From the NCBI GenBank assembly GCA_951406725.2, contig OX597843.1:3348001-3412000 (forward strand): a stretch of DNA of 64,000 nucleotides, in the 5' to 3' direction. Shown here piece after piece: positions 13,550 through 62,440 of the stretch. Below the pieces are notes generated by a model, which made no database searches, was not told the DNA's origin, and saw only the letters and a list, made by a program, of their open reading frames with translations. This DNA comes from Octopus vulgaris. Its lineage: Eukaryota. Every line of letters starts with the position of its first letter. Within the stretch, counting starts at the first letter, position 1. The position numbers and the translations under genes are program-made.

Positions 13550-13680
13550 ACCCAATCATGGCATCATTGAAAGCTGTAGGAGCAATTTTGTCACTCATGT
13601 TGAAATCAACTCCAACCCCTTTCTACAAGTTTGTTAAAACTGTGTCGCCCTGTTTACAAGCCTTTCTAACATTAAAGGAG
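13550..13680 (-). pseudogene. 3' half of the ankyrin exon from which the 51/49-bp satellite expanded
   Basis: Minus strand ACKQGDTVLTNL*KGVGVDFNMSDKIAPTAFNDAMIG|gtagggtcagaattaactaaaatc. Confidence 0.75.
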
Positions 13681-16600
13681 TTTGTCCCATGAACTGTGTC
13701 GCCTGTTTAAAGCCAACATTAAAGGAGTTTGTCCACATAAAACTCTGTCCTTTCTACAGGCCATCATTAGATGAGTTTGTCCCCATGAAACTGTGTCGCT
13801 CTGTTTACAAGCCAACATTAAAGGAGTTTGTTCACATAAAACTCTTGTCCTTTCTACAGGCCATCATTAGATGAGTTTGTCCCCATGAAACTGTGTCGCT
13901 CTGTTTAGAAGCCAACATTAAAGGAGTTTGTCCACATAAAACTCTTGTCCTTTCTACAGGCCATCATTAGATGAGTTTGTCCCCATGAAACTGTGTCGCC
14001 CTGTTTAGAAGCCAACATTAAAGGAGTTTGTCCACATAAAACTCTTGTCCTTTCTACAGGCCATCATTAGATGAGTTTGTCCCCATGAAACTGTGTCGCC
14101 CTGTTTAGAAGCCAACATTAAAGGAGTTTGTCCACATAAAACTCTTGTCCTTTCTACAGGCCATCATTAGATGAGTTTGTCCCCATGAAACTGTGTCGCC
14201 CTGTTTAGAAGCCAACATTAAAGGAGTTTGTCCACATAAAACTCTTGTCCTTTCTACAGGCCATCATTAGATGAGTTTGTCCCCATGAAACTGTGTCGCC
14301 CTGTTTAGAAGCCAACATTAAAGGAGTTTGTCCACATAAAACTCTTGTCCTTTCTACAGGCCATCATTAGATGAGTTTGTCCCCATGAAACTGTTCGCCC
14401 TGTTTAGAAGCCAACATTAAAGGAGTTTGTCCACATAAAACTCTTGTCCTTTCTACAGGCCATCATTAGATGAGTTTGTCCCCATGAAACTGTGTCGCCC
14501 TGTTTAGAAGCCAACATTAAAGGAGTTTGTCCACATAAAACTCTTGTCCTTTCTACAGGCCATCATTAGATGAGTTTGTCCCCATGAAACTGTGTCGCTC
14601 TGTTTACAAGCCAACATTAAAGGAGTTTGTCCACATAAAACTCTTGTCCTTTCTACAGGCCATCATTAGATGAGTTTGTCCCCATGAAACTGTGTCGCCC
14701 TGTTTACAAGCCAACATTAAAGGAGTTTGTCCACATAAAACTCTTGTCCTTTCTACAGGCCATCATTAGATGAGTTTGTCCCCATGAAACTGTGTCGCCC
14801 TGTTTAGAAGCCAACATTAAAGGAGTTTGTCCACATAAAACTCTTGTCCTTTCTACAGGCCATCATTAGATGAGTTTGTCCCCATGAAACTGTGTCGCTC
14901 CATTTACAAGCCAACATTAAAGGAGTTTGTCCACATAAAACTCTTGTCCTTTCTACAGGCCATCATTAGATGAGTTTGTCCCCATGAAACTGTGTCGCTC
15001 TGTTTACAAGCCAACATTAAAGGAGTTTGTCCACATAAAACTCTTGTCCTTTCTACAGGCCATCATTAGATGAGTTTGTCCCCATGAAACTGTGTCGCTC
15101 TGTTTACAAGCCAACATTAAAGGAGTTTGTCCACATAAAACTCTTGTCCTTTCTACAGGCCATCATTAGATGAGTTTGTCCCCATGAAACTGTGTCGCCC
15201 TGTTTACAAGCCAACATTAAAGGAGTTTGTCCACATAAAACTCTTGTCCTTTCTACAGGCCATCATTAGATGAGTTTGTCCCCATGAAACTGTGTCGCCC
15301 TGTTTACAAGCCAACATTAAAGTAGTTTGTCCACATAAAACTCTCGTCCTTTCTACAGGCCATCATTAGATGAGTTTGTCCCCATGAAACTGTGTCGCCC
15401 TGTTTACAAGCCAACATTAAAGGAGTTTGTCCACATAAAACTCTTGTCCTTTCTACAGGCCATCATTAGATGAGTTTGTCCCCATGAAACTGTGTCGCCC
15501 TGTTTAGAAGCCAACATTAAAGGAGTTTGTCCACATAAAACTCTTGTCCTTTCTACAGGCCATCATTAGATGAGTTTGTCCCCATGAAACTGTGTCGCTC
15601 TGTTTACAAGCCAACATTAAAGGAGTTTGTCCACATAAAACTCTCGTCCTTTCTACAGGCCATCATTAGATGAGTTTGTCCCCATGAAACTGTGTCGCCC
15701 TGTTTAGAAGCCAACATTAAAGGAGTTCGTCCCCATAAAACTGTTGTCTTTTCTACAGGCCATCATCAGATGAGTTCGTTCCCATAAAACTGTGTCGCCC
15801 TGTTTAGAAGCCAACATTAAAGGAGTTTGTCCACATAAAACTGTCGTCTTTTCTACAGGCCATCATCAGATGAGTTTTACAAGTCGTCCCCATAAAACTG
15901 TGTCGCCCTGTTTACAAGCAAACATTAAAGGAGTTCGTCCCCATAAAACTGTCGTCTTTCTACAGCCATCATCAGATGATTCGTTCCCATAAACTGTTCG
16001 CCCTGTTTAAAGCAAACATTAAAGGAGTTCGTCCCCATAAAACTGTGTCGCCCTGTTTACAAGCAAACATTAAAGGAGTTCGTCCCCATAAAACTGTCGT
16101 CTTTTCTACAGGCCATCATCAGATGAGTTCGTTCCCATAAAACTGTGCGCCCTGTTTACAAGCAAACATTAAAGGAGTTCGTCCCCATAAAACTGTCGTC
16201 TTTTCTACAGGCCATCATCAGATGAGTTCGTTCCCATAAAACTGTGTCGCCCTGTTTACAAGCAAACATTAAAGGAGTTTGTCCACATAAAACTCTTGTC
16301 CTTTCTACAGGCCATCATTAGATGAGTTTGTCCCCATGAAACTGTGTCGCCCTGTTTAGAAGCCAACATTAAAGGAGTTTGTCCACATAACACTCTTGTC
16401 CTTTCTACAGGCCATCATTAGATGAGTTTGTCCCCATGAAACTGTGTCGCTCTGTTTACAAGCCAACATTAAAGGAGTTTGTCCACATAAAACTCTTGTC
16501 CTTTCTACAGGCCATCATTAGATGAGTTTGTCCCCATGAAACTGTGTCGCCCTGTTTAGAAGCCAACATTAAAGGAGTTTGTCCACATAAAACTCTCGTC

Positions 16601-18027
16601 CTTTCTACAGGCCATCATTAGATGAGTTTGTCCCCATGAAACTGTGTCGCCCTGTTTAGAAGCCAACATTAAAGGAGTTTGTCCCCATAAAACTGTCGTC
16701 TTTTCTACAGGCCATCATCAGATGAGTTCATTCCCATAAAACTGTGTCGCCCTGTTTAGAAGCCAACATTAAAGGAGTTTGTCCACATAAAACTGTCGTC
16801 TTTTCTACAGGCCATCATCAGATGAGTTTGTCCCCATAAAACTGTATCGCCCTGTTTACAAGCCAACATTAAAGGAGTTCGTCCCCATAAAACTGTGTCG
16901 CCCTGTTTACAAGCAAACATTAAAGGAGTTCGTCCCCATAAAACTGTGTCGCCCTGTTTACAAGCAAACATTAAAGGAGTTCGTCCCCATAAAACTGTCG
17001 TCTTTTCTACAGGCCATCATCAGATGAGTTCGTTCCCATAAAACTGTGTCGCCCTTTTTACAAGCAAACATTAAAGGAGTTCGTCCCCATAAAACTGTCG
17101 TCTTTTCTACAGGCCATCATCAGATGAGTTCGTTCCCATAAAACTGTGTCGCCCTGTTTACAAGCAAACATTAAAGGAGTTCGTCCCCATAAAACTGTCG
17201 TCTTTTCTACAGGCCATCATCAGATGAATTCGTTCCCATAAAACTGTATCGCCCTGTTTACAAGCCAACATTAAAGGAGTTCGTCCCCATAAAACTGTGT
17301 CGCCCTGTTTACAAGCAAACATTAAAGGAGTTCGTCCCCATAAAACTGTCGTCTTTTCTACAGGCCATCATCAGATGAGTTCGTTCCCATAAAACTGTGC
17401 CGCCCTGTTTACAAGCAAACATTAAAGGAGTTCGTCCCCATAAAACTGTCGTCTTTTCTACAGGCCATCATCAGATGAGTTTGTCCCCATAAAACTGTAT
17501 CGCCCTGTTTACAAGCCAACATTAAAGGAGTTCGTCCCCATAAAACTGTGTCGCCCTGTTTACAAGCAAACATTAAAGGAGTTCGTCCCCATAAAACTGT
17601 GTCGCCCTGTTTACAAGCAAACATTAAAGGAGTTCGTCCCCATAAAACTGTGTCGCCTGTTTACAAGCCAACATTAAAGGAGTTTGTCCCCATAAAACTG
17701 TGTCGCCCTGTTTACAAGCCAACATTAAAGGAGTTCGTCCCCATAAAACTGTCGTCCTTTCTACAGGCCATCATTAGATTAGTTTGTCCCCATGAAACTG
17801 TGTCGCCCTGTTTACAAGCAAACATTAAAGGAGTTCGTCCCCATAAAACTGTGTCGCCCTGTTTACAAGCCAACATTAAAGGAGTTTGTCCCCATAAAAC
17901 TGTGTCGCCCTGTTTACAAGCAAACATTAAAGGAGTTCGTCCCCATAAAACTGTCGTCCTTTCTACAGGCCATCATTAGATTAGTTTGTCCCCATGAAAC
18001 TGTGTCGTCCTGTTTACAAGCAAACAT
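13636..18027 (-). repeat. Satellite array 2: 51-bp and 49-bp monomers, mostly as a 100-bp dimer, encoding half-ankyrin motifs
   Basis: The 51-bp unit reads LWGRTPLMFACKQGDTV (17 codons) and the 49-bp unit reads GQTHLMMACRKDDSF. See ORFs 16756-16971, 17409-17624 and 17712-17927. Confidence 0.92.
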
Positions 18028-18075
18028 TTCATTAATTAAAGTAAACATCTGGAGATTTTAGTTAATTCATCATCT

Positions 18076-31300: not shown

Positions 31301-32560
31301 AAGACACCTATGTTGCCCTTTCAGCCAAGGCTTTGATTGAGCAATGTTCATTCTAAACTTACCCAATCACAGCATAATGGAAAGCTGTCTAACCCTTGTT
31401 AGATTGTGTTTTAATACATGCTCCCTCTTTTAACATGTTTAAGACATCTATGTTGCCCTCTCAGCCAAGGCTTTGATTGTCCAATGTTCATTCTAAACTT
31501 ACCCAATCACACCATAATGGAAAGCTGTCTAACCCTTGTTAGATTGTGTTTTAATATATGCCCCCTCTTTTAACATGTTTAAGACATCTATGTTGCCCCC
31601 TCAGCCAAGGCTTTGATTGTGCAATGTTCATTCTAAACTTACCCAATCACACCATAATGGAAAGCTGTCTAACCCTTGTTGGTTCATGTTTTAATATATG
31701 CCCCTTCTTTTAACCTGTTTAAGACATCTATGTTGCCCTCTCAGCCAAGGCTTTGATTGTCCAATGTTCATTCTAAACTTACCCAATCACACCATAATGG
31801 AAAGCTGTCTAACCCTTGTTAGATTGTGTTTTAATACATGCTCCCTCTTTTAACATGTTTAAGACATCTATGTTGCCCTCTCAGCCAAGGCTTTGATTGT
31901 GCAATGTTAATTCTAAACTTACCCAATCACAGCATAATGGAAAGCTGTCTAACCCTTGTTAGATTGTGTTTTAATACATGCTCCCTCTTTTAACATGTTT
32001 AAGACATCTATGTTGCCCTCTCAGCCAAGGCTTTGATTGAGCAATGTTAATTCTAAACTTACCCAATCACAGCATAATGGAAAGCTGTCTAACCCTTGTT
32101 AGATTGTCTTTTAATACATGCTCCCTCTTTTAACATGTTTAAGACATCTATGTTGCCCCCTCAGCCAAGGCTTTGATTGAGCAATGTTAATTCTAAACTT
32201 ACCCAATCACAGCATAATGGAAAGCTGTCTAACCCTTGTTAGATTGTGTTTTAATACATGCTCCCTCTTTTAACATGTTTAAGACATCTATGTTGCCCTC
32301 TCAGCCAAGGCATTGATTGAGCAATGTTCATTCTAAACTTACCCAATCACACCATAATGGAAAGCTGTCTAACCCTTGTTAGATTGTGTTTTAATATCTG
32401 CCCCCTTAGCCAAGGCTTTGATTGAGCAATGTTCATTCTAAACTTACCCAATCACAACATGATGTAATGCTGTATAACCATTTTTGTTGACCGTGTCGAC
32501 ATCATCTCCAAATTTTGTCATCAAATATATTGAATTTGTGTCACCCTGTTAACAGGCATA
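19370..32560 (-). repeat. Satellite array 3: 140-bp ankyrin-exon monomers in homogeneous sub-blocks with a ~4.7-kb higher-order duplication
   Basis: 140-bp period over 21.0-22.4, 25.9-27.4 and 29.8-32.4 kb. ORF pairs 22894/27608 and 23838/28552 are both offset by 4714 bp. Confidence 0.92.
20360..20960 (-). mobile_element. Interspersed segment co-amplified with the satellite, possibly a decayed Tx1/L1-type ORF1; related copies near 340-1080, 1750-2030, 3770-4060, 5910-6200, 10750-11400, 23060-23670, 27780-28380
   Basis: Recurrent diverged copies. The minus-strand fragments ETKGWVKPP, KQNRGTVIFISG and EEMKRVMWIEG look like eroded coding sequence. The family assignment is weak. Confidence 0.3.
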
Positions 32561-32649
32561 TTTAGATAAATTTCAGTATTTGAATTTATTTGCTGAATTC
32601 TTTCTGGACCCTTTAAAAAAGTTTTTTTTAATGCAGTCGTCCCAAGCTT

Positions 32650-33505
32650 CTGAAATCTTGTTGAGGTCTGGAAGGAATTTGGCAAAAACTACAACATGAG
32701 GTATAGGAAAGGACTTCACAACAGGTACATACTTCACAACAGGTACATAATTCACAACAGGTACATGCTTCATAGAGCAGAGAAGGCCATTTTTAATACT
32801 TTCAAGGGCTTCATAGTTTATGTGATCTTCTTGAGATCGTGTATAATCAAAGGTAACGATCTTGTGGCCATCATACATATATTTCAGATCAGTGGACCTA
32901 CCATTTTCTAGACGGAGGCCATGCAAGGTTTGTATATAACAAAGGCGCAGGAGTGGCTGTGTGGTAAGTAGCTTGCTTACCAACCACATGGTTCTGGGTT
33001 CTGTCCAACTGCGTGGCACCTTGGGCAAGTGTCTTCTACCATAGCCCCGGGCCGACCAAAGCCTTGTGAGTGGATTTGGCAGACGGAAACTGAAAGAAGC
33101 CCGTCGTATATATGTATATGTGTGTCTGTGTTTGTCCCCCTAGCATTGCTTGACAACCGATGCTGGTGTGTTTACGTCCCCCGTTACTTAGCGGTTCGGC
33201 TAAAAGAGACCGATAAAATAAGTACTGGGCTTACAAAAAGAATAAGTCCCGGGGTCGATTTGCTCGATTAAAGGCGGTGCTCCAGCATGGCCGCAGTCAC
33301 ATGACTGAAACAAGTAAAAGAGTAATGTGATAAATAGGTCTTACCCGAGTTGCCTATCGGATCATAGTACCAGATGATAGATCCGGAATTCGGTTTCATT
33401 CGGATGTCCTGAATAAGCTTAAATTGCCATTTACGACAGGTAACGCCAGGTAACTCCAATAGAATGTTATCAAGACCCTTACGTTTCTTAGACTCGACAC
33501 AAAGC
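32650..33505 (-). pseudogene. rep: Endogenous CRESS-DNA virus Rep (SF3 helicase domain, nanovirus/alphasatellite-like), split by a SINE; the HUH domain is missing
   Basis: 33323-33505: WQFKLIQDIRMKPNSGSIIWYYDPIGNSGKTYLSHY (Walker A). 32650-32943: ENGRSTDLKYMYDGHKIVTFDYTRSQEDHINYEALESIKNGLLCSMK...PHVVVFAKFLPDLNKISE (Walker B, motif C region). Confidence 0.85.
32944..33322 (+). mobile_element. Full-length tRNA-derived SINE inserted into the Rep remnant
   Basis: Head ggcgcaggagtggctgtgtggtaag (A/B-box-like), internal (TA/TG)n, tail atgactgaaacaagtaaaagag. Many copies in the window. Confidence 0.9.
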
Positions 33506-33574
33506 AACGTTCAGTCGATGGGAATGCTAGATTTTCTTGAAAAGCTTCATAGTGCAGTTGTTATTTGTCCTTTA

Positions 33575-33970
33575 GTTGGCCTGAGGCTATAGTAGAAGAT
33601 GCTTGCCCAAGGTGCCACACTGTGGGACTGAACCCGGAACCATGTGGTTGGTAAGCAAGCTACTTACCACACAGCCACTCCTGCGCCTAGAAATTTTTCT
33701 TCATCATCATCATCATCATTTAGCGTCCGCTTTCCATGCTAGCATGGGTTGGACGGGTCAACTGGGGTCTGTGAAGCTGGAAGGCTTCGTCAGGCCCAGT
33801 CAGATCTGGCAGTGTTTCTACGGCTGGATGCCCTTCCTAACGCCAACCACTCCGTGAGTGTAGTGGGTGTTTTTTACGTGCCACCTGCACAGGTGCCAGA
33901 TAGAGCTGGCAAACGGCCACGAACGGATGGTGCTTTTACGTGTCACCGGCACGGGGGCCAGGCGAGGCTC
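33575..33970 (-). mobile_element. Two adjacent SINE fragments (tRNA-head family and (CAT)n-tail family)
   Basis: Reverse complement of the SINE head at 33575-33689, then catcatcat-tttagcgtccgctttccatgct... from 33700. Confidence 0.8.
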
Positions 33971-33974
33971 AAGA

Positions 33975-34420
33975 AAAAGGAAAGCACGTTCAGTCGTAGG
34001 GAATGCTAGATTTTCTTGAAAAGCTTCATAGTGCAGTCCTTTTTTGGTCCTTGATGGCTAGGGATAAAAACTGACCGTTTCTCATCTTGATTGAGGAATA
34101 CCGAATGTCTGTATGCGCTACCTGCTGATAAGAAAGTCAGACGCTCCTATGTCCCTGGCAGCGTTAGAAGAATCATTGTCGATCATGACCTGGATCTCAC
34201 CAACAAATTCAAGGGTTCTTTTCTCACCAGAGCGAGTTCTCCGAGCTGTCATACCTTCATAATCACCATTAGACTCGTCCGGCTTTTTCCGAATCTTCTA
34301 CGCTGTCCTCGGATTGACATCCAAACAATCTGAAATGTTTGTATTGGAGGATTCAGCATGAATGCTAGGCAATACAGCATGTCGTTTCCAAATTTCTGGC
34401 AGTGAATTGCCTCATGATGC
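33975..34420 (-). mobile_element. Tc1/mariner-like transposase N-terminal fragment; a short duplicate lies at ~33505-33570
   Basis: LPEIWKRHAVLPSIHAESSNTNISDCLDVNPRTA*KIRKK...RTLEFVGEIQVMIDND...VAHTDIRYSSIKMRNGQFLSLAIKD, an HTH region followed by the H.DIRY.S.KMR.GQFLS segment of Tc1-like transposases. Confidence 0.7.
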
Positions 34421-35099
34421 TGTTTTTTTCTCACTGACAGTACTCTACTGGCCCTACTATACTGTGTTGTAAAAAAAAAATCAAAAAACTAACAATGCAT
34501 GTACACAAAAGAAAAAAATTTCAATGGCAACAATTTACCAATTGCACTCTGTACACATATCTATATTTATACATATATACAATTATATATAATATATATT
34601 TATACATATATACACTTATATATAATTGTGTAAATCCGGTTTCTCACACTAGATTCATTCAAATGGTGACTCACTATTTCTTTTCTTTGACAATTCTAAA
34701 GACGTTTTAAAATATCTCGGTTCATTCTCGTTAAATTTTCTGCATCAATAGCCACATTACTCTAAAGAAACTTGTCTCTCTTGAAATCTCGGGTCACCTT
34801 TTTCTTGTCCTATTCGGTAAAATAGGACAAACGCAAGTACCTACGGCAGCATTCGCTTCCACCGCCTTTCGGAGCCTTGTGGAGCTTTAGGTGTTTTCGC
34901 TCAATAAAAACTCAATATGCCTGGTCTGGGAATCAAAATCGCAATATGACTGCAAGTCCACTGGCCCATTGCACCTCCATAAGAGTGATATATATATATA
35001 TAAAGAGGGAAAGTATTAAATTATCCGTACTTTCGTCATAACATACCTTTAGTATCACACTACCTTCTGCACATGCGTGCTCATAGTTGGTAATATTGT

Positions 35100-38430: not shown

Positions 38431-39850
38431 TAGTTTCAACAGTGGCGCTCAAGGTTGGATTGATCCACAAAACCTTTCTAGTCCTACAGGCTTTTATTCC
38501 CTTCATTATTGATGTTGGATCTCCTCTGAGAATTCGGTGCTATGCAGAGCGTCATTATATTACGGGCCGAGGTACCTGGATAATTACCAGAAATCCCTGG
38601 CCTGGCAGTGTTTCCGTGCGGCTTTACCTGTTAGCGACAAGCTATCAAGGCACGGAGGTGTCGTCTCGCCGACATGTCCGCGATGCGAGCGGGATAGGGA
38701 AACCGTCTTGCACGCATTCGTGGAGTGCCCGGAGTTATCGGGACTGATTGCTTTTGCCGAACTACTGTTGTCAGTGAATGGAAGAGTACAGCTATCGGCT
38801 GAATCTATTATCAAGTTTGTACCACCTCCCTTCCTCAGCAGGGAAAGGAAGGCTTGTTTTTCCTGCGTAGTAGCCATACTGAAAGAAACAGTATGGAAGA
38901 CGCGTACGAAAGGTATAGTGACAGGTACCTTTGTATCCGGCCAGGAATTCATACTCTCTTTTACTTGTTTCAGTCATTTGACTGCAGCCATGCTGGAGCA
39001 CCGCCTTTAGTCGAGCAAATCGACCCCGGGACTTATTCTTTGTAAGCCCAGTACTTATTCTATCCGTCTCTTTTGCCAAACCGCTAAGTGACGGGGACGT
39101 AAACACACCAGCATCGGTTGTCAAGCAATGCTAGAAGGGACAAACACAGACACACAAACACACATATATATATATACATATATACGACAGGCTTCTTTCA
39201 GTTTCCGTCTACCAAATCCACTCACAAGGCATTGGTCGGCCCCGGGGCTGTAACAGAAGACACTTGCCCAAGATGTCACGCAGTGGGGCTGAACCCGGAA
39301 CCATGTGGTTGGTAAACAAGCTACTTACCACACAGCCACTCCTGTGCCTATTTATATATATATACGACAGGCTTCTTTCAGTTTCCGTCTACCAAATCCA
39401 CTCACAAGGCTTTGGTCGGCCCCGAGGGCTATAGCAGAAGACACTTGCCCAAGATGCCACGCAGTGAGACTGAACCCGGAACCATGTGGCTGGTTAGCAA
39501 GCTACTTACCACACAGCCACTTTTTTAGTTACCACCTTGGTTGTAAGATCAGGCTGGAGAAGAGGTGTCTGTCACGAGATATGTTTGTGAAAAGACGGAA
39601 ATCTGTGGCTTGCAAGCTGGGTATATTTGGCACCAGGTAAGTGTGGCCGGATCAAGAATTAAAGGTTCTACCCAGATGACTGGGTTCCATGCCCTACTAT
39701 GTAAAAATCATATTGTAACCTTTATATTGTAAATATTGTACACATTATATTGTAAGTACTAAAACGTTTTAAGCTACTACACCCTATATGTTTGTCTGTA
39801 TTTGTATGTCCCCTCTATGTAATGCCTTGATGGCGAATTTTCATGAAATA
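38430..39850 (+). mobile_element. Tx1/L1-clade LINE ORF2 C-terminus (zf-RVT) and 3' UTR, interrupted by a minus-strand double-headed SINE (~38950-39520)
   Basis: LDNYQKSLAWQCFRAALPVSDKLSRHG...CPRCERDRETVLHAFVECP...KETVWKTR. It resumes after the SINE as FFSYHLGCKIRLEKRCLSRDMFVKRRK. A related fragment is at 63150-63300. Confidence 0.85.
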
Positions 39851-49439: not shown

Positions 49440-50584
49440 TGGGATGAGTGCACTATGGCACACAAAGGCGCACTTGAGGCACTGGACAGGTCCCTGCAAG
49501 ACATCAGAGACTTTACGGCCCTCATGGGAGGATTGACTTTACTTCTTTTAGGAGACTACAGGCAGGCTCTACCTGTTTTTCCAAAAGGAACCCATGCCGA
49601 TGCCGTGCGCGCCTTAAGTTGTCAGCTCTTTGGGCACATGTGCGGCCCTTGCACCTCCAAACTAACGTGCGCGCGCAGTTGATTGGTGACAGCAGATCTG
49701 CTGCATTCTCCAGGGACCTTTTATCGCTCGGTAAAAATATGATGCCGGCTGATGCGGACGGCTGTGTTCAATTGAACTCACTTTGCACCACTGCTAGCCT
49801 CCGGGACGCTGTCTTCCACGACCTACAAAACAATTTACGCGACCTAAAATGGCTGGCAGGCAGAGCTATTCTCGGACCCAAAAATACAACCGTCAACTCC
49901 ATCAATATCCAGCTACTTGAAGCTATTCCTGGTGATGTCCACGTCTACAAATCTATTGATAGGACAGCAGACCCCACCGAGCTTGCCGATTATCCTGTTG
50001 AATTCCTGAATTCACTTGAACCACCAGGCCTGCCGCCACACATCCTGAAGTTAAAAGTCGGTGCGCCCATTATGCTCATCAGGAATTCGGTTCCACCTAA
50101 ACAGTGCAACGGCACACGTCTGGTTGTGAAACATTTGCCACCACATTTAATAACGGCCACAATACCTACCGGTTGTGGGAAGGGAGAGAACTTCTTCATT
50201 CCATGCATGCACCTTCAACCGTCGGGCGCTGACCTACCAATCCACTTCAGGCGTTCTCAGTTTCCTGTTAAACTCTGCTTCGCAATGTCCATCAATAAAT
50301 CTCAAGGCCAAACGCTACAAGTCGCTGGGTTACATTTGGGCGAACAGTGCTTCGCCCATGGTCAACTCTACGTGGGCTGTTCACGCGTTGGGAGGCGCAA
50401 TGATGTTTTCATGTTTTCGCCCAAAGGGACAGCTAGGAACATCGTATACACAGAAGTATTCGAGTGAAGAGAAGACATTGCAACCTACACATGCGCCTTC
50501 GTTCCCTAGAGGGAAAGGACCAGATTGGGATTGGTTGTTGCCTACTAGGGGCTCTTACATACCCGGGCCGGGCTATGCTGCTAG
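49440..50584 (+). mobile_element. 5'-truncated Helitron: PIF1-like helicase C-terminal part and 3' CTAG end
   Basis: WDECTMAHKGALEALDRSLQDIR, GDYRQALPV, PPHILKLKVGAPIMLIRN, CNGTRL, FAMSINKSQGQTL, HGQLYVGCSRV. One frameshift near 49620. A GC-rich stem precedes CTAG at 50581-50584. Confidence 0.93.
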
Positions 50585-53100: not shown

Positions 53101-53364
53101 CTCGGGAGCTTGGCCACATGTACCTTCACATTGACATTTTTGTATTATGGTTGATGTATAACTGAAAACTCCAAAACTGGACAAGAAACTTAATGAATCG
53201 TTAAAACTTTTACTTTTGCCTTATATACATGTCAGGCTGTAGTGTTGTCAGTGTAAGGAACCAAAAGCACAAGTATCATTAAAATACATCCTTAGTGTGG
53301 GTCCTCTTGTCTTTTGGCGGTTGTGGGCTGTCCTGTTTTTGTCAGAATTTCATGGAGAAATCCA

Positions 53365-54364: not shown

Positions 54365-56395
54365 ACACCGGAAGAATTATCCTAGTCCCAAGTGCGGCAT
54401 GTGCTTCCTAAAGCTGCCACTCTTTGTCGACAGAACTATTGTAGCAATACAATATGCAGTCCGCAAAGAAGGACTCGATATAGAGATAGTGCTCATCGGC
54501 CCTTCCCTGATTAAAGCTCTGTCCAAGAACACCTCTCACTACTCCGATGAGTGCACATTGTCAAACTGCCCCATTAATGACGCTGAATTGTGCCAGAGGA
54601 CCTATGGTCCTTTCTATAAGATTTCTTGGCTCCTCTCTAAACCACTCAAGCCCTTGCTACACGCATTCCCAGAACACATCAGCAGCTCCCACGATATCTT
54701 TGAGGATATTGGCCCCTCCACACTTAAAACTAACAAATACCCTTTTAGCTTAGATATCGTTTCCCTCTACACCCACTCTCCCAGCCGTTGGTATCCTCAT
54801 AGATAAGGCGGCGAGCTGGCAGAAACGTTAGCACACCGGGCGAAACGCTTAGCGGTGTTTTGTCTATCTTTACGTTCTGAGTTCAAATTCCGCCAAGGTC
54901 GACTTTGCCTTTCATTGTTTCGGAGTCGATTAAATAAGTACCTATTTCTTTATTACCCACAAAGGGCTAAACATAGAGGGGACAAAACAAGGACAGACAT
55001 AGGTATTATGTCAATTACATCGACCCCCAGATCTTGACTGGTGCTTACTTGATTTATCGACCCCGAAAGGATGAAAGGCAAAGTCGACCTTGGCGGAATT
55101 TGAACTCACAACGTAACGGCAGACGAAGTACCGCAAAGCATTTCGCCCGGTGTGCTAACGCTTCTGCTAGCTCGCCGCCTTATAAGTACCAGTTACGCAC
55201 TGGGGTCGATATAATCGACTTAATCTGTTTGTTTGTCCTCTGCAGGTAGTAAAGAAATAGGTATCCTCATAGACTACATCATGTCCTTATCTCCCCCACA
55301 TCTCCTTGTCCCCACCTCCCTTCCTTCAACCTCCTCTCCCCATCCACCAACCTCTAGCTCTTCGGTCTCACACCCTCGGACATACAAGAGTTACTGCCCA
55401 TTATAGTTGGTAACACCTACTTCCAATATAACTGTGATTTACAAACACTCCCGACCAGCCTACCTCTAGGATCCAGCCTTTCAGGCCTGCTGGCCATCAC
55501 GTACATGGATAAGCTAGAACGCACAGTACTCAATACCTGCCACTCATGCATCTTCTCCAGGTACGTTTGTATCATCCGTTCCTCCAGGGATTGGGCCATT
55601 AACATACACTGGACCTTTAATAACACTGACATAAACATCAAATTCGAGATTGAACATCCAGACGAATCCGAAACCCTGTCTCTACTCAACTTCCAAATCA
55701 AGATCGCAGTGGAAGGCTCCATATTTACCAAATTCTACAGAAAAGCCGCTGCCAATAGAAAACTTATCGTCCACTACCAATCAGCCTTACTCACCCCAGA
55801 ACCAAAGCCACATACCTGAGAAACGAGATTGCACATAAACTACAATTGCAGGACATGACCGACAAAGCTGTCAACCCCAAACAGTTCCTCAGAGACCTAA
55901 TCCTGAATGGATAACCACCATCTATAGCTAAACAACGTCTAGGTCAATAAACGCCGGAAGAATTATCCTAGTGCCAAGTCTGGCATGTGCTTCCTAAAGC
56001 TACCACACTTTGAGGACAGAACCATTGTAGTGATACAACACGCAGGCCGCAGAGAAGGACTCGACATAGAGATAGTGCTCATTGGCCCTTCCCTGATTAA
56101 AGCTCTGTCCAAGAACACCTCTCACTACGCCGATGAGTACACATTGTCAAACTGCCCCATCAATGACCCTGAATTGTGCCAGAGGACCCATGTTGTATAT
56201 GAGATCATCTGTGGCAAAAGTGACACACCCTAGATTGGAAGCACGACAAGGAAACTGCATATACGCATTAAGGAACACAAGCAGGCAGACACTTCTATGA
56301 AGAAACATCTACAGCAATGCCAGACCCGGGAGTTCACATCAAGGCAACACAGCAGAACAGAGGCAACCTTAGAATGTCTGAAGCATTGAATACAA
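54363..56395 (+). mobile_element. Decayed Penelope-like element (RT + GIY-YIG), interrupted by nested SINEs at ~54806-55260
   Basis: FSLDIVSLYT, LGSSLSGLLAITYMDKLE, NIKFEIEHP...LSLLNFQI...TKFYRK (PLE RT); VVYEIICGKSDTP*IGSTTRKLHIRIKEH (GIY-YIG). gtatcctcataga is duplicated at 54791 and 55261 around the SINE insertion. Confidence 0.88.
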
Positions 56396-60732: not shown

Positions 60733-62286
60733 TCAAGATGTAAACGATGATTTCATGATGTCATAGACGGGCGTCGTGCCGGAGATGTCGTCCTCGTCTT
60801 CCTCCTCCTCCACCTCTTCGATGTCCTCTTCTTCCTCTTCGTCGTCCTCTTCCTCTTCGCAGATTTCATTCTCTCCCTCATCACCACCATTGTTGCTGCT
60901 GCTGTTGTTGTTGTTGTTCCCGCTTTGGTGCTGCTGCAGCAATTGTTGTTGCATCTGCTGCTGCTCATCGTTGCTAAGGGATTTCGTGGTCGTCAACGAC
61001 GCCGAGGACTTGTTGTGGGTCTTGAGGTGGACGCTGAGGTTTCCGGACACGGAGAAGGTCTTCTGGCAGAAGTCGCACTTGAACGGCCGCTCCCCCGTGT
61101 GCGTGCGCAGGTGCACGTTGAGGTTGCCGTACGTGGTGAACGCCTTGCGGCACACGTCGCACTGGTAGGGTTTCTCGTCGGTGTGCGACCGCAAATGCAC
61201 AGTAAGGTTACCGGATGTCGTGAACGCCTTTGGACACAGTGAACAGCGGAAGGGCCGCTCCCCGCTGTGTGTGCGCTTATGCGCCACCAGGCTGCTCGAA
61301 GTTGTGAACGTGTCTCCGCACTGGTCACACTGATAGGGCCTCGCCCCGGTATGAATCCGCTGGTGCACGTTCAGTGCGCCAGACGTGCGGAACTGCTTCT
61401 GACAGCGCGTGCATTTGTAGGGCCGGTCCCCCGTGTGTGTTCGCTGGTGCCGTTGCAGTTTCCCGGCCTCGGCGAACGCCCGGTTGCAGAAGGTGCACTT
61501 CAACAGCCGACCCTGGGGCTGCGACTGTGAGTGCGTCTTCACGTGTTGGTCGAGCTTCACGCTGTCTGTAAACGAAGCCCCGCAGTACTCACACTTGAAA
61601 AGCCTCTCGCCCGAGTACATACACTCGTGTGACTGCAGTTCAGAGAGGTTCTTGAAGCTCTTCTCACAATTTTGGCACTGCTTGATGCCAACGCGGGGCC
61701 TGTCTCTCAACCCGGCTCTGTTTGACGTAATGTCATTGCTCGGCGGCTCAGGCGTGCTGGCCGTAGTACTACCCCCACCACCGCCAATGCTGCTGCTGTT
61801 TCCGAAGTTGTTCTCCACGTAATACTTGGGGTAGGTCATGTTGCTGTCGAGGGGCGACGGCACCCCGGAGCCACCGAGGACGTGCACAACCATGTGCTCG
61901 TTGAGTTCTTCGAAGCTGTCAAAGTTGCGATAACACATCTGGCACTTGGACGACGAAGTCGAGGTCTGTCCTGGAAGCGACCCCATTCGCTGCTGCTGTT
62001 GTTGTTGTTGATGCTGCTGAAGTTTCCCCACGTTCATACTCACGCTGTCGTTCATGCCCAGGTAAGCAGTGCTTTGGAAATTCGGAATATAATTCTTCTC
62101 CCCCCTCGTGTCCGTGCTGTGGATCAGCTGGTGGGTGGAGAACTGCTCAAAATCGGAAAATATCTGTGGACAACAACTGCAAGGATACAATGGACCGTCA
62201 CTGGAATGGCTCTTCAGGTGCTGAAGTAACAAATAATTGTATTTGAACGTTTTCTCACAGCTGGTGCACTTCAAACTTTTTCCCAT
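60733..62286 (-). CDS. C2H2 zinc-finger transcription factor, 517 aa: 10 canonical and 1 degenerate finger, polyQ and acidic tail
   Basis: Uninterrupted ORF with CxxC-x12-HxxxH repeats and TGDRPY/TGARPY/SGERPF/TDEKPY/TGERPF linkers; GC-rich codons against an AT-rich background. Confidence 0.95.
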   Translation of the reverse strand: MGKSLKCTSCEKTFKYNYLLLQHLKSHSSDGPLYPCSCCPQIFSDFEQFSTHQLIHSTDTRGEKNYIPNFQSTAYLGMNDSVSMNVGKLQQHQQQQQQQRMGSLPGQTSTSSSKCQMCYRNFDSFEELNEHMVVHVLGGSGVPSPLDSNMTYPKYYVENNFGNSSSIGGGGGSTTASTPEPPSNDITSNRAGLRDRPRVGIKQCQNCEKSFKNLSELQSHECMYSGERLFKCEYCGASFTDSVKLDQHVKTHSQSQPQGRLLKCTFCNRAFAEAGKLQRHQRTHTGDRPYKCTRCQKQFRTSGALNVHQRIHTGARPYQCDQCGDTFTTSSSLVAHKRTHSGERPFRCSLCPKAFTTSGNLTVHLRSHTDEKPYQCDVCRKAFTTYGNLNVHLRTHTGERPFKCDFCQKTFSVSGNLSVHLKTHNKSSASLTTTKSLSNDEQQQMQQQLLQQHQSGNNNNNSSSNNGGDEGENEICEEEEDDEEEEEDIEEVEEEEDEDDISGTTPVYDIMKSSFTS

Positions 62287-62440
62287 AGCTCACTTTTATT
62301 ATTATTATTATTGTTGCTGTTGTTGTTCTTCTTCTTCTGTCCTTTTCTTTCTTTGTTTCAGATTTCTTCAAACATTACACGGCTGTTTCTTTTTTTCACA
62401 GACTCCATACCAAGGAAGAGAGAAAGAAGTTGGTAAAAAC

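What the first reader, a model, noticed from the sequence alone, without database searches (positions are those of the whole stretch)
32650..33505. Endogenous nanovirus/alphasatellite-like CRESS Rep in a probable cephalopod genome
Seen: removing the SINE at 32944-33322 joins IIWYYDPIGNSGKTYLSHY to ENGRSTDLKYMYDGHKIVTFDYTRSQEDHINYEALESIKNG...PHVVVFAKFLPD. Neither piece has an internal stop, and there is an in-frame 18-bp triplication (VPVVxY). Known: IIW.Y.P.G..GKT / IV.FD..R..ED..NY..LE..KNG...S.KY / V.V.ANF.P is the SF3 helicase signature of nanovirid, alphasatellite and related CRESS Reps. The host SINE inside it argues for germline integration rather than contamination. It could link an unassigned CRESS lineage to a mollusc host.
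Basis: partly seen in the sequence, partly recalled or inferred. Interest (0 to 1): 0.8.

Follow-up and report, generated by a model that had tools for sequence, protein, structure and literature searches.

The report
Dead circular-virus helicase fossil in octopus
A broken piece of the replication gene of a small circular DNA virus sits in what is very probably an octopus chromosome, split by a host jumping element; such viral fossils are a known kind, but this one belongs to an octopus-specific group that points to octopuses as hosts of a virus lineage with no known host.

Summary
On the minus strand, 33504-33322 and 32938-32651 encode the back half of a CRESS-DNA virus Rep (end of the oligomerisation domain, Walker A, Walker B, B', motif C), split by a young SINE. 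It is germline DNA: the virus-host junctions are bridged by contigs from two organisms. It is dead: there is no nuclease half, capsid or origin, the motif C Asn is replaced, and the arginine finger is cut off.

The label needs correcting. It is neither nanovirid nor, on weak evidence, an alphasatellite. It is sister to an Octopus vulgaris protein (CAI9733846.1) in an octopus-only clade (98/92). Its nearest named virus is Dragonfly larvae associated circular virus-10 (Anicreviridae, Mulpavirales; 56% against 35-42% for nanovirid-type Reps). Related Reps are annotated in the tubeworm Lamellibrachia.

CRESS fossils are known from bivalves and snails; I found no report for cephalopods. The scan noted similar fossils in other genomes, none look-alike. 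The open question is whether the uninterrupted O. vulgaris / O. bimaculoides copies (88% identical) are kept by the host.

The parts
33322..33504 (-). Rep piece 1: end of the oligomerisation domain, WQ motif and Walker A (GNSGKT); open frame
   Evidence: tblastn P0173 54% over 61 aa, E 6e-18; octopus-clade profile iE 3e-19
32943..33325 (+). Host SINE inserted into the Rep just after Walker A; very high copy; 3.3% from the local majority of copies
   Evidence: Self-blastn; ends aligned with other copies; 12 of 369 differences; summed contig depth about 1e7-5e7 against 45-85 on the Rep in DNA runs. tRNA-type A/B boxes seen by eye only; ARAGORN and Rfam found nothing
32651..32938 (-). Rep piece 2: Walker B, B' and hairpin, motif C (Asn replaced); ends before the arginine finger
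   Evidence: 71% of ungapped columns identical to P0173; phmmer E 9e-27 to P0004; conserved-site check
32713..32772 (-). 18-bp tandem repeat (3.3 copies) in the KY hairpin between B' and motif C; one unit in homologues, one more unit in organism B
   Evidence: TRF; 12-residue gap against all homologues; insertion row in X19 and X20
32400..32651 (-). Host flank: last unit of a ~31-kb ankyrin-like exon/intron array; its homology to another unit (1076-1293) runs up to 32651 and fixes the downstream virus-host junction
   Evidence: blastn and alignment; 32447-32545 hits Pfam Ank_4 at E 0.005, below the curated cut-off
33501..34052 (.). Upstream flank: 72-bp direct duplication (33501-33572 / 33981-34052, 90%) around an inverted SINE fragment (33570-33689) and a second repeat (33698-33968); this block is skipped in other individuals
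   Evidence: X16 record 6 joins 33519 to 33999, and one X19 contig of depth 49.8 covers both 33391 and 34039

Best explanation
A pseudogenised endogenous viral element. A monopartite CRESS-DNA virus of order Mulpavirales, close to Anicreviridae and belonging to a lineage that infected octopuses, left about 475 bp of its rep gene (helicase half only) in the germline, next to a degenerate ankyrin-repeat array (shown: sequence, junctions, tree). Integration was most likely illegitimate repair or recombination of nuclear viral DNA, since these viruses have no integrase (inferred; not shown here). Most of its divergence from the O. vulgaris relative arose under purifying selection, in the virus or in an earlier working copy (inferred). 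Later a SINE inserted, before organisms A and B split. After that the 18-bp unit changed number, a stop arose in one individual, and a second insertion appeared in the window's haplotype. Today it cannot nick DNA (no HUH domain) and cannot act as an ATPase or helicase (interrupted, sensor-1 Asn replaced, Arg finger missing). It is inert DNA, at most a passenger in a host transcript.
For: Homology and tree: sister to P0173 100/80, octopus clade 98/92; same clade with piece 2 alone, 98/93; an 86-row clade (96) holds it with DflaCV-10 and the Lamellibrachia Reps and excludes the nanovirid-type Reps; DflaCV-10 is Anicreviridae. Related viral contigs L001-L004 are 2.2-2.3 kb with Rep and a capsid-like ORF on opposite strands. 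Germline: the downstream virus-host junction is bridged with more than 31 letters on each side in 4 of 4 laid runs, the upstream one in 3 of 4, and Rep contigs have the depth of neighbouring host contigs (58.6 and 65.1 against 60 in X16; 45-54 against 42.5 in X19). The stretch is held in 20 of 24 listed runs, 9 studies, 2 organisms. Dead: no endonuclease hit in six frames of 64 kb; 20 of 24 near-invariant sites kept, with motif C Asn and the Arg finger among the 4 missing; roles of these residues from PMC8780604 section 3.2.3; end branch 0.53 against 0.10; in-frame stop in X16.
Against: No exogenous virus inside the octopus clade was found: the best identities to octopus queries were 47% in viral contigs and 49% in metagenomes, and none. 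Direct viral integration cannot therefore be told from duplication of an older endogenous copy. Deep branches of a 159-column tree are weak, so family placement is loose, and only one named anicrevirus was in the tree. SINE junction contigs reach only 21-27 letters into the SINE (9 in X20, left side), below the tool's 31-letter bar, and 720 joints were not shown, so a SINE-free allele is not excluded. The host is inferred; no host genome was available. B versus A shows 4 synonymous and 4 non-synonymous changes among the 8 listed, which does not look strictly neutral but is too few to test.
Confidence: 0.82

Rival explanations
1. A dead paralogue of a domesticated octopus gene family. One old integration gave a helicase-only Rep gene that octopuses kept (for example as a dominant-negative antiviral protein or a DNA-handling ATPase) and duplicated. 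The window copy is a duplicate killed by the SINE.
For: O. vulgaris P0004 and O. bimaculoides P0171 are 88% identical (95% similar) over 258 aa, variable tail included, and both keep 24 of 24 near-invariant sites. None of the three named octopus proteins scanned (P0004, P0173, P0259) has a Viral_Rep endonuclease hit. The clade has no free-virus member. The window copy lost only 2 of 21 conserved sites where about 6 were expected (P 0.025).
Against: The same pattern follows from separate recent insertions of closely related octopus viruses. The N-termini of the annotated copies differ and look truncated. P0173 lacks the Walker A Thr; P0196 and P0172 have lost conserved sites. Synteny and expression could not be tested.
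Confidence: 0.2
2. An EVE of a nanovirid or alphasatellite, acquired from a plant- or alga-associated replicon.
For: Shared motif style (KNG..S.KY, ANF, Glu in helix 3). The AU test is only marginal (p 0.046). Banana bunchy top virus Rep and its alphasatellites are among the BFVD matches (ranks 34, 48, 49). No alphasatellite was in the tree.
Against: 35-42% identity to eight nanovirid-type Reps against 56% to DflaCV-10 and 68-71% to octopus copies. Separate clades in three trees. The nearest viral contigs are 2.2-2.3 kb Rep plus capsid-like genomes, not 1-kb single-gene circles (PMC8515864).
Confidence: 0.04
3. Assembly chimera or contamination: an environmental or parasite CRESS virus stitched into the host assembly.
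For: The window differs structurally from other runs just upstream (a block of about 480 bp is skipped in X16 and X19), and SINE junctions are below the formal bridging bar.
Against: Junction-spanning contigs in 4 of 4 laid runs from 4 studies and 2 organisms, depth equal to host flanks, shared SINE, and species-level differences. Relatives lie on 78-100 Mb O. vulgaris sequences.
Confidence: 0.02
4. The Rep reached the octopus germline through an intermediate (a large DNA virus or a transposon that had captured it) rather than from a free CRESS virus, so it says little about CRESS host range.
For: Rep capture by poxviruses is published (PMC10193959, abstract start in listing). Relatives sit on 34 kb to 1.9 Mb unnamed ENA contigs of unknown nature. 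The upstream flank runs into a roughly thousand-copy unidentified repeat at 34067-34480.
Against: No large-virus or transposase gene is evident next to the element. The nearest mobile remains, a Pif1-type helicase at 49478-50464 and RT fragments, are 5-22 kb away.
Confidence: 0.06

Closest known systems
CRESS-DNA Rep endogenous elements of invertebrates, including molluscs (Dennis et al. 2018, PMC6069186: Modiolus, Mytilus, Biomphalaria, Conus)
   Same: Rep-only fragment in an invertebrate germline, several divergent copies per host, no capsid (passages; PMC6186406 passages)
   Different: Cephalopod host: O. bimaculoides was in that screen's species list, but the main text names no octopus element. 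Helicase half only; split by a SINE shared by two species.
Anicreviridae (Mulpavirales), e.g. Dragonfly larvae associated circular virus-10, Manawavirus kapowais
   Same: Nearest named virus: 56% over piece 2; same 86-row clade in the FastTree; ENG.S.D.K / RSQ.H.NYE motif set
   Different: Not sister to it; the link is not resolved in the IQ-TREE run. No capsid or origin to compare. One named member tested.
Octopus vulgaris CAI9733846.1 and CAI9729859.1; O. bimaculoides XP_014788809.1 (LOC106882589)
   Same: One clade (98/92); 68-71% over piece 2; no endonuclease domain found in the three scanned; UniRef already labels two of them Rep or SF3 helicase
   Different: Those are uninterrupted 266-310 aa predicted proteins with a C-terminal tail; the window copy is truncated, interrupted and degenerate.
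Lamellibrachia satsuma 'Para-Rep C1' (KAI0212790.1, KAI0238252.1) and unnamed large ENA contigs
   Same: Rep of the same wider group annotated in a lophotrochozoan genome; 48-55% over piece 2
   Different: Separate clade (99/90); its closeness to the octopus clade is weakly supported (86/78 for a 22-row group). Some members keep the endonuclease (P0175). Their integration was not checked.
Nanoviridae M-Rep and Alphasatellitidae Rep
   Same: Same order-level motif style
   Different: 35-42% identity; separate long-branch clade; plant hosts and 1-kb components

Membership tests
CRESS-DNA (Cressdnaviricota) Rep-derived sequence | SF3 helicase with Walker A, Walker B, B' and motif C, best hits among cressdnavirus Reps | tested here: met
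   Walker A and B kept, motif C recognisable but its Asn replaced
CRESS-DNA (Cressdnaviricota) Rep-derived sequence | N-terminal HUH endonuclease (motifs I-III) | tested here: not met
   No hit in six frames of the window by tblastn or profile: a fragment, not a whole Rep
Functional SF3 ATPase/helicase | Sensor-1 Asn and Arg finger present in one uninterrupted frame | tested here: not met
   roles from PMC8780604 section 3.2.3
Endogenous viral element | Virus-host junctions in independent genomic data, at host-like depth | tested here: met
   Downstream junction bridged in 4 of 4 runs, upstream in 3 of 4; depth like host flanks
Endogenous viral element | Orthologous copy in a second species | tested here: met
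   Organism B runs X19 and X20 carry both pieces, the same flank and both SINE ends, with their own substitutions; species labels are coded
Endogenous viral element | Empty pre-integration site or target-site duplication | tested here: inconclusive
   A paralogous array unit lacks the Rep beyond 32651; no empty orthologous site was seen
Anicreviridae | Rep phylogeny: monophyly with the family's members | tested here: inconclusive
   With DflaCV-10 in a 96-support clade by FastTree, unresolved by IQ-TREE; 1 of 9 genera represented by name
Anicreviridae | Monopartite circular genome with Rep, capsid and stem-loop origin | not testable with these tools
   Only the helicase half is present. No capsid hit with one capsid query; no nonamer within the element. 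Related contigs show this layout.
Nanoviridae | M-Rep clade; multipartite 0.9-1.1 kb components; plant host | tested here: not met
   (p-AU 0.046); definition from PMC8515864. Reference rows are unnamed IMG/VR records that I labelled nanovirid from size, origin motif and recall.
Alphasatellitidae | Rep clade of 1.0-1.4 kb Rep-only satellites | tested here: inconclusive
   No named alphasatellite sequence could be put in the tree; BFVD rows give 31-33% to the P0173 model
Domesticated (co-opted) viral gene | Syntenic orthologues, purifying selection, expression | not testable with these tools
   No host genome or flanks of the other copies were available; only protein-level conservation

The most novel reading that the evidence does not exclude
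Octopuses carry a family of nuclease-less, virus-derived SF3 helicase genes from an unrecognised Mulpavirales lineage of lophotrochozoans. At least one member (O. vulgaris CAI9729859.1 / O. bimaculoides LOC106882589) is a co-opted, conserved host gene, for example a dominant-negative restriction factor that poisons viral Rep hexamers. The window locus is a recently killed paralogue that dates the family's turnover.
Probability: 0.2. Interest if true: 0.75.

Novelty: new member of a known kind. Interest (0 to 1): 0.45.

Why it matters
Most cressdnavirus lineages have no known host, and germline fossils are direct evidence of host range (PMC9615429, passages). This locus and its annotated relatives tie a Mulpavirales lineage near Anicreviridae to octopuses, with a neighbouring clade annotated in an annelid. 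The review table I saw gives plants as hosts for the order's other three families. The SINE shared by two species gives a minimum relative age. The locus itself is a dead fragment. The testable question it opens is whether the intact octopus copies are maintained by selection.

Tried and rejected
- Own-genome search: no genome held, so copy number and synteny are untested.
- Pfam and PDB sequence searches on the window pieces alone: 0 of 5 Pfam hits; no significant PDB hit. A near-length homologue search found nothing.
- Upstream stretches that looked like HUH motifs by eye (34040-34400): no support by tblastn or two profiles; rejected.
- Weak match of the P0173 tail at 53131-53220 (E 0.008): not recovered by the profile; treated as chance.
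- Expression: no RNA holder listed on record. Fifteen of the 20 holders are only guessed to be RNA. Relative to SINE depth the Rep stretch is about 25-60 times richer in the two guessed-RNA runs than in the DNA runs (hand ratio), but the runs were chosen for holding it and no silent control was laid. X8 has no cover at 33377-33514. None of this is used as evidence.
- Search for a free virus in the octopus clade: 0 of 11 candidate stretches; best 49% of 14 loci, 47% of 5 loci; with the annelid-type query at most 52% on partial segments, 39 loci.
- PDB fold search of the P0173 model gave only AAA+/SF3-level matches such as ClpB and papillomavirus E1.
- Naming more references: 3 of 10 sequences were not in the collection and 6 of the other 7 clusters had no name, so the host species was not fixed.
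- P0003 ranked first only because it holds two helicase repeats; it falls outside the octopus clade.
- Literature: 10 searches found no report of a cephalopod CRESS element. Zhao, Lavington and Duffy 2021 (a eukaryote-wide CRESS screen, recalled) is not held, and supplement file 4 of PMC6069186 was not searchable; either could already list these copies.

Full report
Observation. An octopus-clade profile sets their limits at 33504-33322 and 32938-32651, within a base or two of the reported 32650-33505. Between them lies a repeat from 32943 to about 33321-33325, with more than ten further matches in the window. The 18-bp repeat has 3.3 copies at 32713-32772 and adds 12 residues against every homologue. 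The match is not chance. Independent proteins hit the pieces at E 4e-36 and 6e-18 (P0173), and piece 2 has 870 hits at E<=1e-3 among 1.84 billion representatives. The profiles agree; the profile included the window pieces (2 of 78 rows) and is not independent.

What it is. It is the back half of a CRESS-DNA Rep. The first hits carry Pfam Viral_Rep. The Atlas places piece 2 and its nearest relative among Cressdnaviricota (one top-three row is a mostly eukaryotic cluster at 0.90). The model of the uninterrupted relative P0173 (pLDDT 79) matches viral Reps in BFVD and only AAA+/SF3 folds in the PDB. No endonuclease half was found in six frames of the 64 kb. No capsid match was found with one capsid query, and no origin nonamer within the element. 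Homology to another unit of the host array runs up to 32651, so the element is cut just before the arginine finger. Of 24 near-invariant positions it keeps 20, one of them in host-derived sequence. It lacks the Arg before Walker A, the motif C Asn, and the Asp-Arg of the finger. The Asn positions the catalytic water and the Arg finger acts in trans (PMC8780604, section 3.2.3 read). The extra 18-bp units lengthen the hairpin that carries the conserved Lys-Tyr; that this Lys is the DNA-binding pre-sensor-1 Lys of that paper is my inference.

Relatives. The best single-domain hit is an Octopus vulgaris protein on a 100-Mb sequence (CAI9729859.1). Searching with it found a second O. vulgaris protein on a 78-Mb sequence (CAI9733846.1), an O. 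bimaculoides protein (XP_014788809.1 cluster), several unnamed Logan proteins at 82-87%, and Lamellibrachia satsuma 'Para-Rep C1' proteins. In an IQ-TREE of 75 rows and 159 columns (73 chosen from 242 helicase-covering rows, plus the window row and the fragment P0015), the window copy is sister to CAI9733846.1 (100/80) inside a six-row clade (98/92) whose three named rows are all Octopus. With piece 2 alone a six-row clade holding it and the three named octopus rows is recovered again (98/93). A FastTree of all 244 rows puts that clade in an 86-row group (96) with DflaCV-10 and the Lamellibrachia Reps, away from nine nanovirid-type Reps. DflaCV-10 is Manawavirus kapowais, Anicreviridae, Mulpavirales. 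Over piece 2 the identities are 68-71% to octopus copies, 56% to DflaCV-10, 48-55% to the annelid-type clade and 35-42% to eight nanovirid-type Reps. Holding the octopus clade and the nanovirids together costs 59 log units, p-AU 0.046, which is marginal. The nanovirid rows are unnamed IMG/VR records of about 1 kb that I labelled from size, origin motif and recall. No alphasatellite was in the tree. Related viral contigs are 2.2-2.3 kb with Rep and a capsid-like ORF on opposite strands, unlike nanovirid components (PMC8515864, whole text). No free virus inside the octopus clade was found.

Germline status. The stretch 32560-32940 is held in 20 of 24 listed runs: 18 of organism A in 7 studies and 2 of organism B in 2 studies; one may be the assembly's source. 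I laid 4 of these. The downstream virus-host junction at about 32651 is bridged with more than 31 letters on each side in all four. The upstream end is bridged in X16 and X20 and, from shared contig depth, in X19. Rep contigs have the depth of neighbouring host contigs in both DNA runs, although the tool warns that depth is no copy number. Contigs run from the Rep into the SINE on both sides in A and in B, but only by 21-27 letters (9 in X20 on the left), which is under the tool's bar. This is what graph contigs do at a very high-copy repeat, but it is not formal bridging. No SINE-skipping joint is among those shown (720 not shown). B has a fourth 18-bp unit and 8 listed substitutions in the coding pieces, 4 synonymous and 4 not; X16 has one difference, which makes an in-frame stop. 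The block 33520-33998 is skipped in X16 and apparently X19. It was not shown directly, as no genome is held.

How it came about. Shown order: the virus fragment came first, then the SINE (shared by A and B, 3.3% from the local majority of copies), then lineage- or individual-specific changes. Inferred: integration by repair or illegitimate recombination. The copy differs from CAI9733846.1 at 52 of 144 positions, most of them on its own branch (0.53 against 0.10). Under pure neutral decay about 3 stops and about 6 lost conserved sites would be expected, against 0 and 2 seen (P 0.054 and 0.025; a rough calculation, and the locus was picked for being open). With so young a SINE, most of the divergence therefore arose under constraint, either in a distinct virus or in a once-working endogenous copy. 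I put 0.82 on a dead EVE, whichever its immediate source, and 0.2 on the octopus clade including a co-opted gene; these two overlap. The second reading rests on the O. vulgaris / O. bimaculoides pair: 88% identical over 258 aa with 24 of 24 conserved sites and no endonuclease hit. Recent separate insertions of related viruses would look the same, and synteny could not be tested. Expression is not shown.

Comparison with what is known. Rep-only CRESS elements are reported from bivalves and gastropods (PMC6069186; passages). That screen listed O. bimaculoides among its genomes (supplement search; file 4 not searched), but its main text has no mention of octopus or cephalopods. Multiple divergent copies per invertebrate host are known (PMC6186406, passages). 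PMC9615429 lists a mollusc-biased lineage, CRESSV14, with unknown host (passages and supplement rows); I could not tell whether it is this one. The supplements of PMC10193959 have no octopus or mollusc entry (otherwise seen as a search listing only). PMC11945456 tabulates Anicreviridae under invertebrates and vertebrates (passage). PMC11532311 (passage), PMC6668415 (passage), PMC13689118 (passage), PMC6011040 (passages) and PMC11097642 (passages) added nothing on octopus CRESS elements. Ten library searches found no such report; a recalled eukaryote-wide screen (Zhao, Lavington and Duffy 2021) is not held. UniRef already labels two octopus proteins as Rep or SF3 helicase, so the clade is in databases but apparently undescribed. 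This scan's earlier notes hold 8 endogenous CRESS findings in at least 2 other genomes, none with look-alike sequence or with octopus in the text.

Verdict. This is a real, germline, pseudogenised fragment of a CRESS Rep: a new member of a known kind. Interest is 0.45: modest for the locus, higher for the host link and for the testable question of the intact octopus copies.

Noticed in passing
window 1120-32450, minus strand: The 140/187-bp 'satellite' reads as an ankyrin-repeat exon/intron array: 105 units end in a GTAAG donor-like site, and the 99 bp before it translate as ankyrin-like repeats. 90 of 105 carry a stop in the last 14 residues, nearly always at one position (G*TA[LF]H), while 15 are open. 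The unit next to the Rep hits Pfam Ank_4 at E 0.005, below cut-off. It is probably a decayed gene amplified as a satellite. The recurrent stop reads TAG in the units inspected, which A-to-I editing would turn into Trp; that is speculation and untested.
   Followed up: partly
window 33520-33998: A block of about 480 bp (inverted SINE fragment plus another repeat, between 72-bp near-duplicates) is skipped in DNA run X16 and apparently in X19: a polymorphic insertion or an assembly artefact.
   Followed up: partly
window 34067-34480: An unidentified repeat with summed depth about 1e4-2e5 against about 60 for unique DNA and no other copy in the window. X16 differs from the window here by several small deletions.
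   Followed up: no
window 49478-50464 (+): Pif1-type helicase ORF (Pfam Pif1_2B_dom E 8.5e-15), probably Helitron remains (label recalled).
   Followed up: partly
window 60733-62289 (-): Long single-frame C2H2 zinc-finger ORF, 518 aa, about 10 fingers, acidic tail.
   Followed up: partly
window 38513-39010 (+) and 55358-55819 (+): LINE-type fragments: zf-RVT E 1.3e-8; weak RVT_1 E 0.035.
   Followed up: partly
P0174, P0177, P0019, P0175, P0176, P0179, P0027, P0037, P0181: A supported Rep clade (99/90 for the 8 of these in the tree) made of Lamellibrachia satsuma proteins and proteins on unnamed ENA contigs of 34 kb to 1.9 Mb: possibly an annelid or invertebrate EVE family, with some members full length.
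   Followed up: partly
P0195, P0196, P0260, P0261 (Logan contigs of about 1.65 kb): Octopus-type Rep copies that keep more of the oligomerisation domain but all leave the Rep frame at the same point after Walker B: another shared interrupted copy, or an intron.
   Followed up: no
P0003 (named Methylococcales MAG protein, 3.9-kb contig): Tandem double helicase domain of this Rep group under a bacterial label; probably a mis-binned viral or eukaryotic contig.
   Followed up: no
window 13670-18028: A separate 100-bp tandem array, 43.5 copies, inside the ankyrin-like array region.
   Followed up: no
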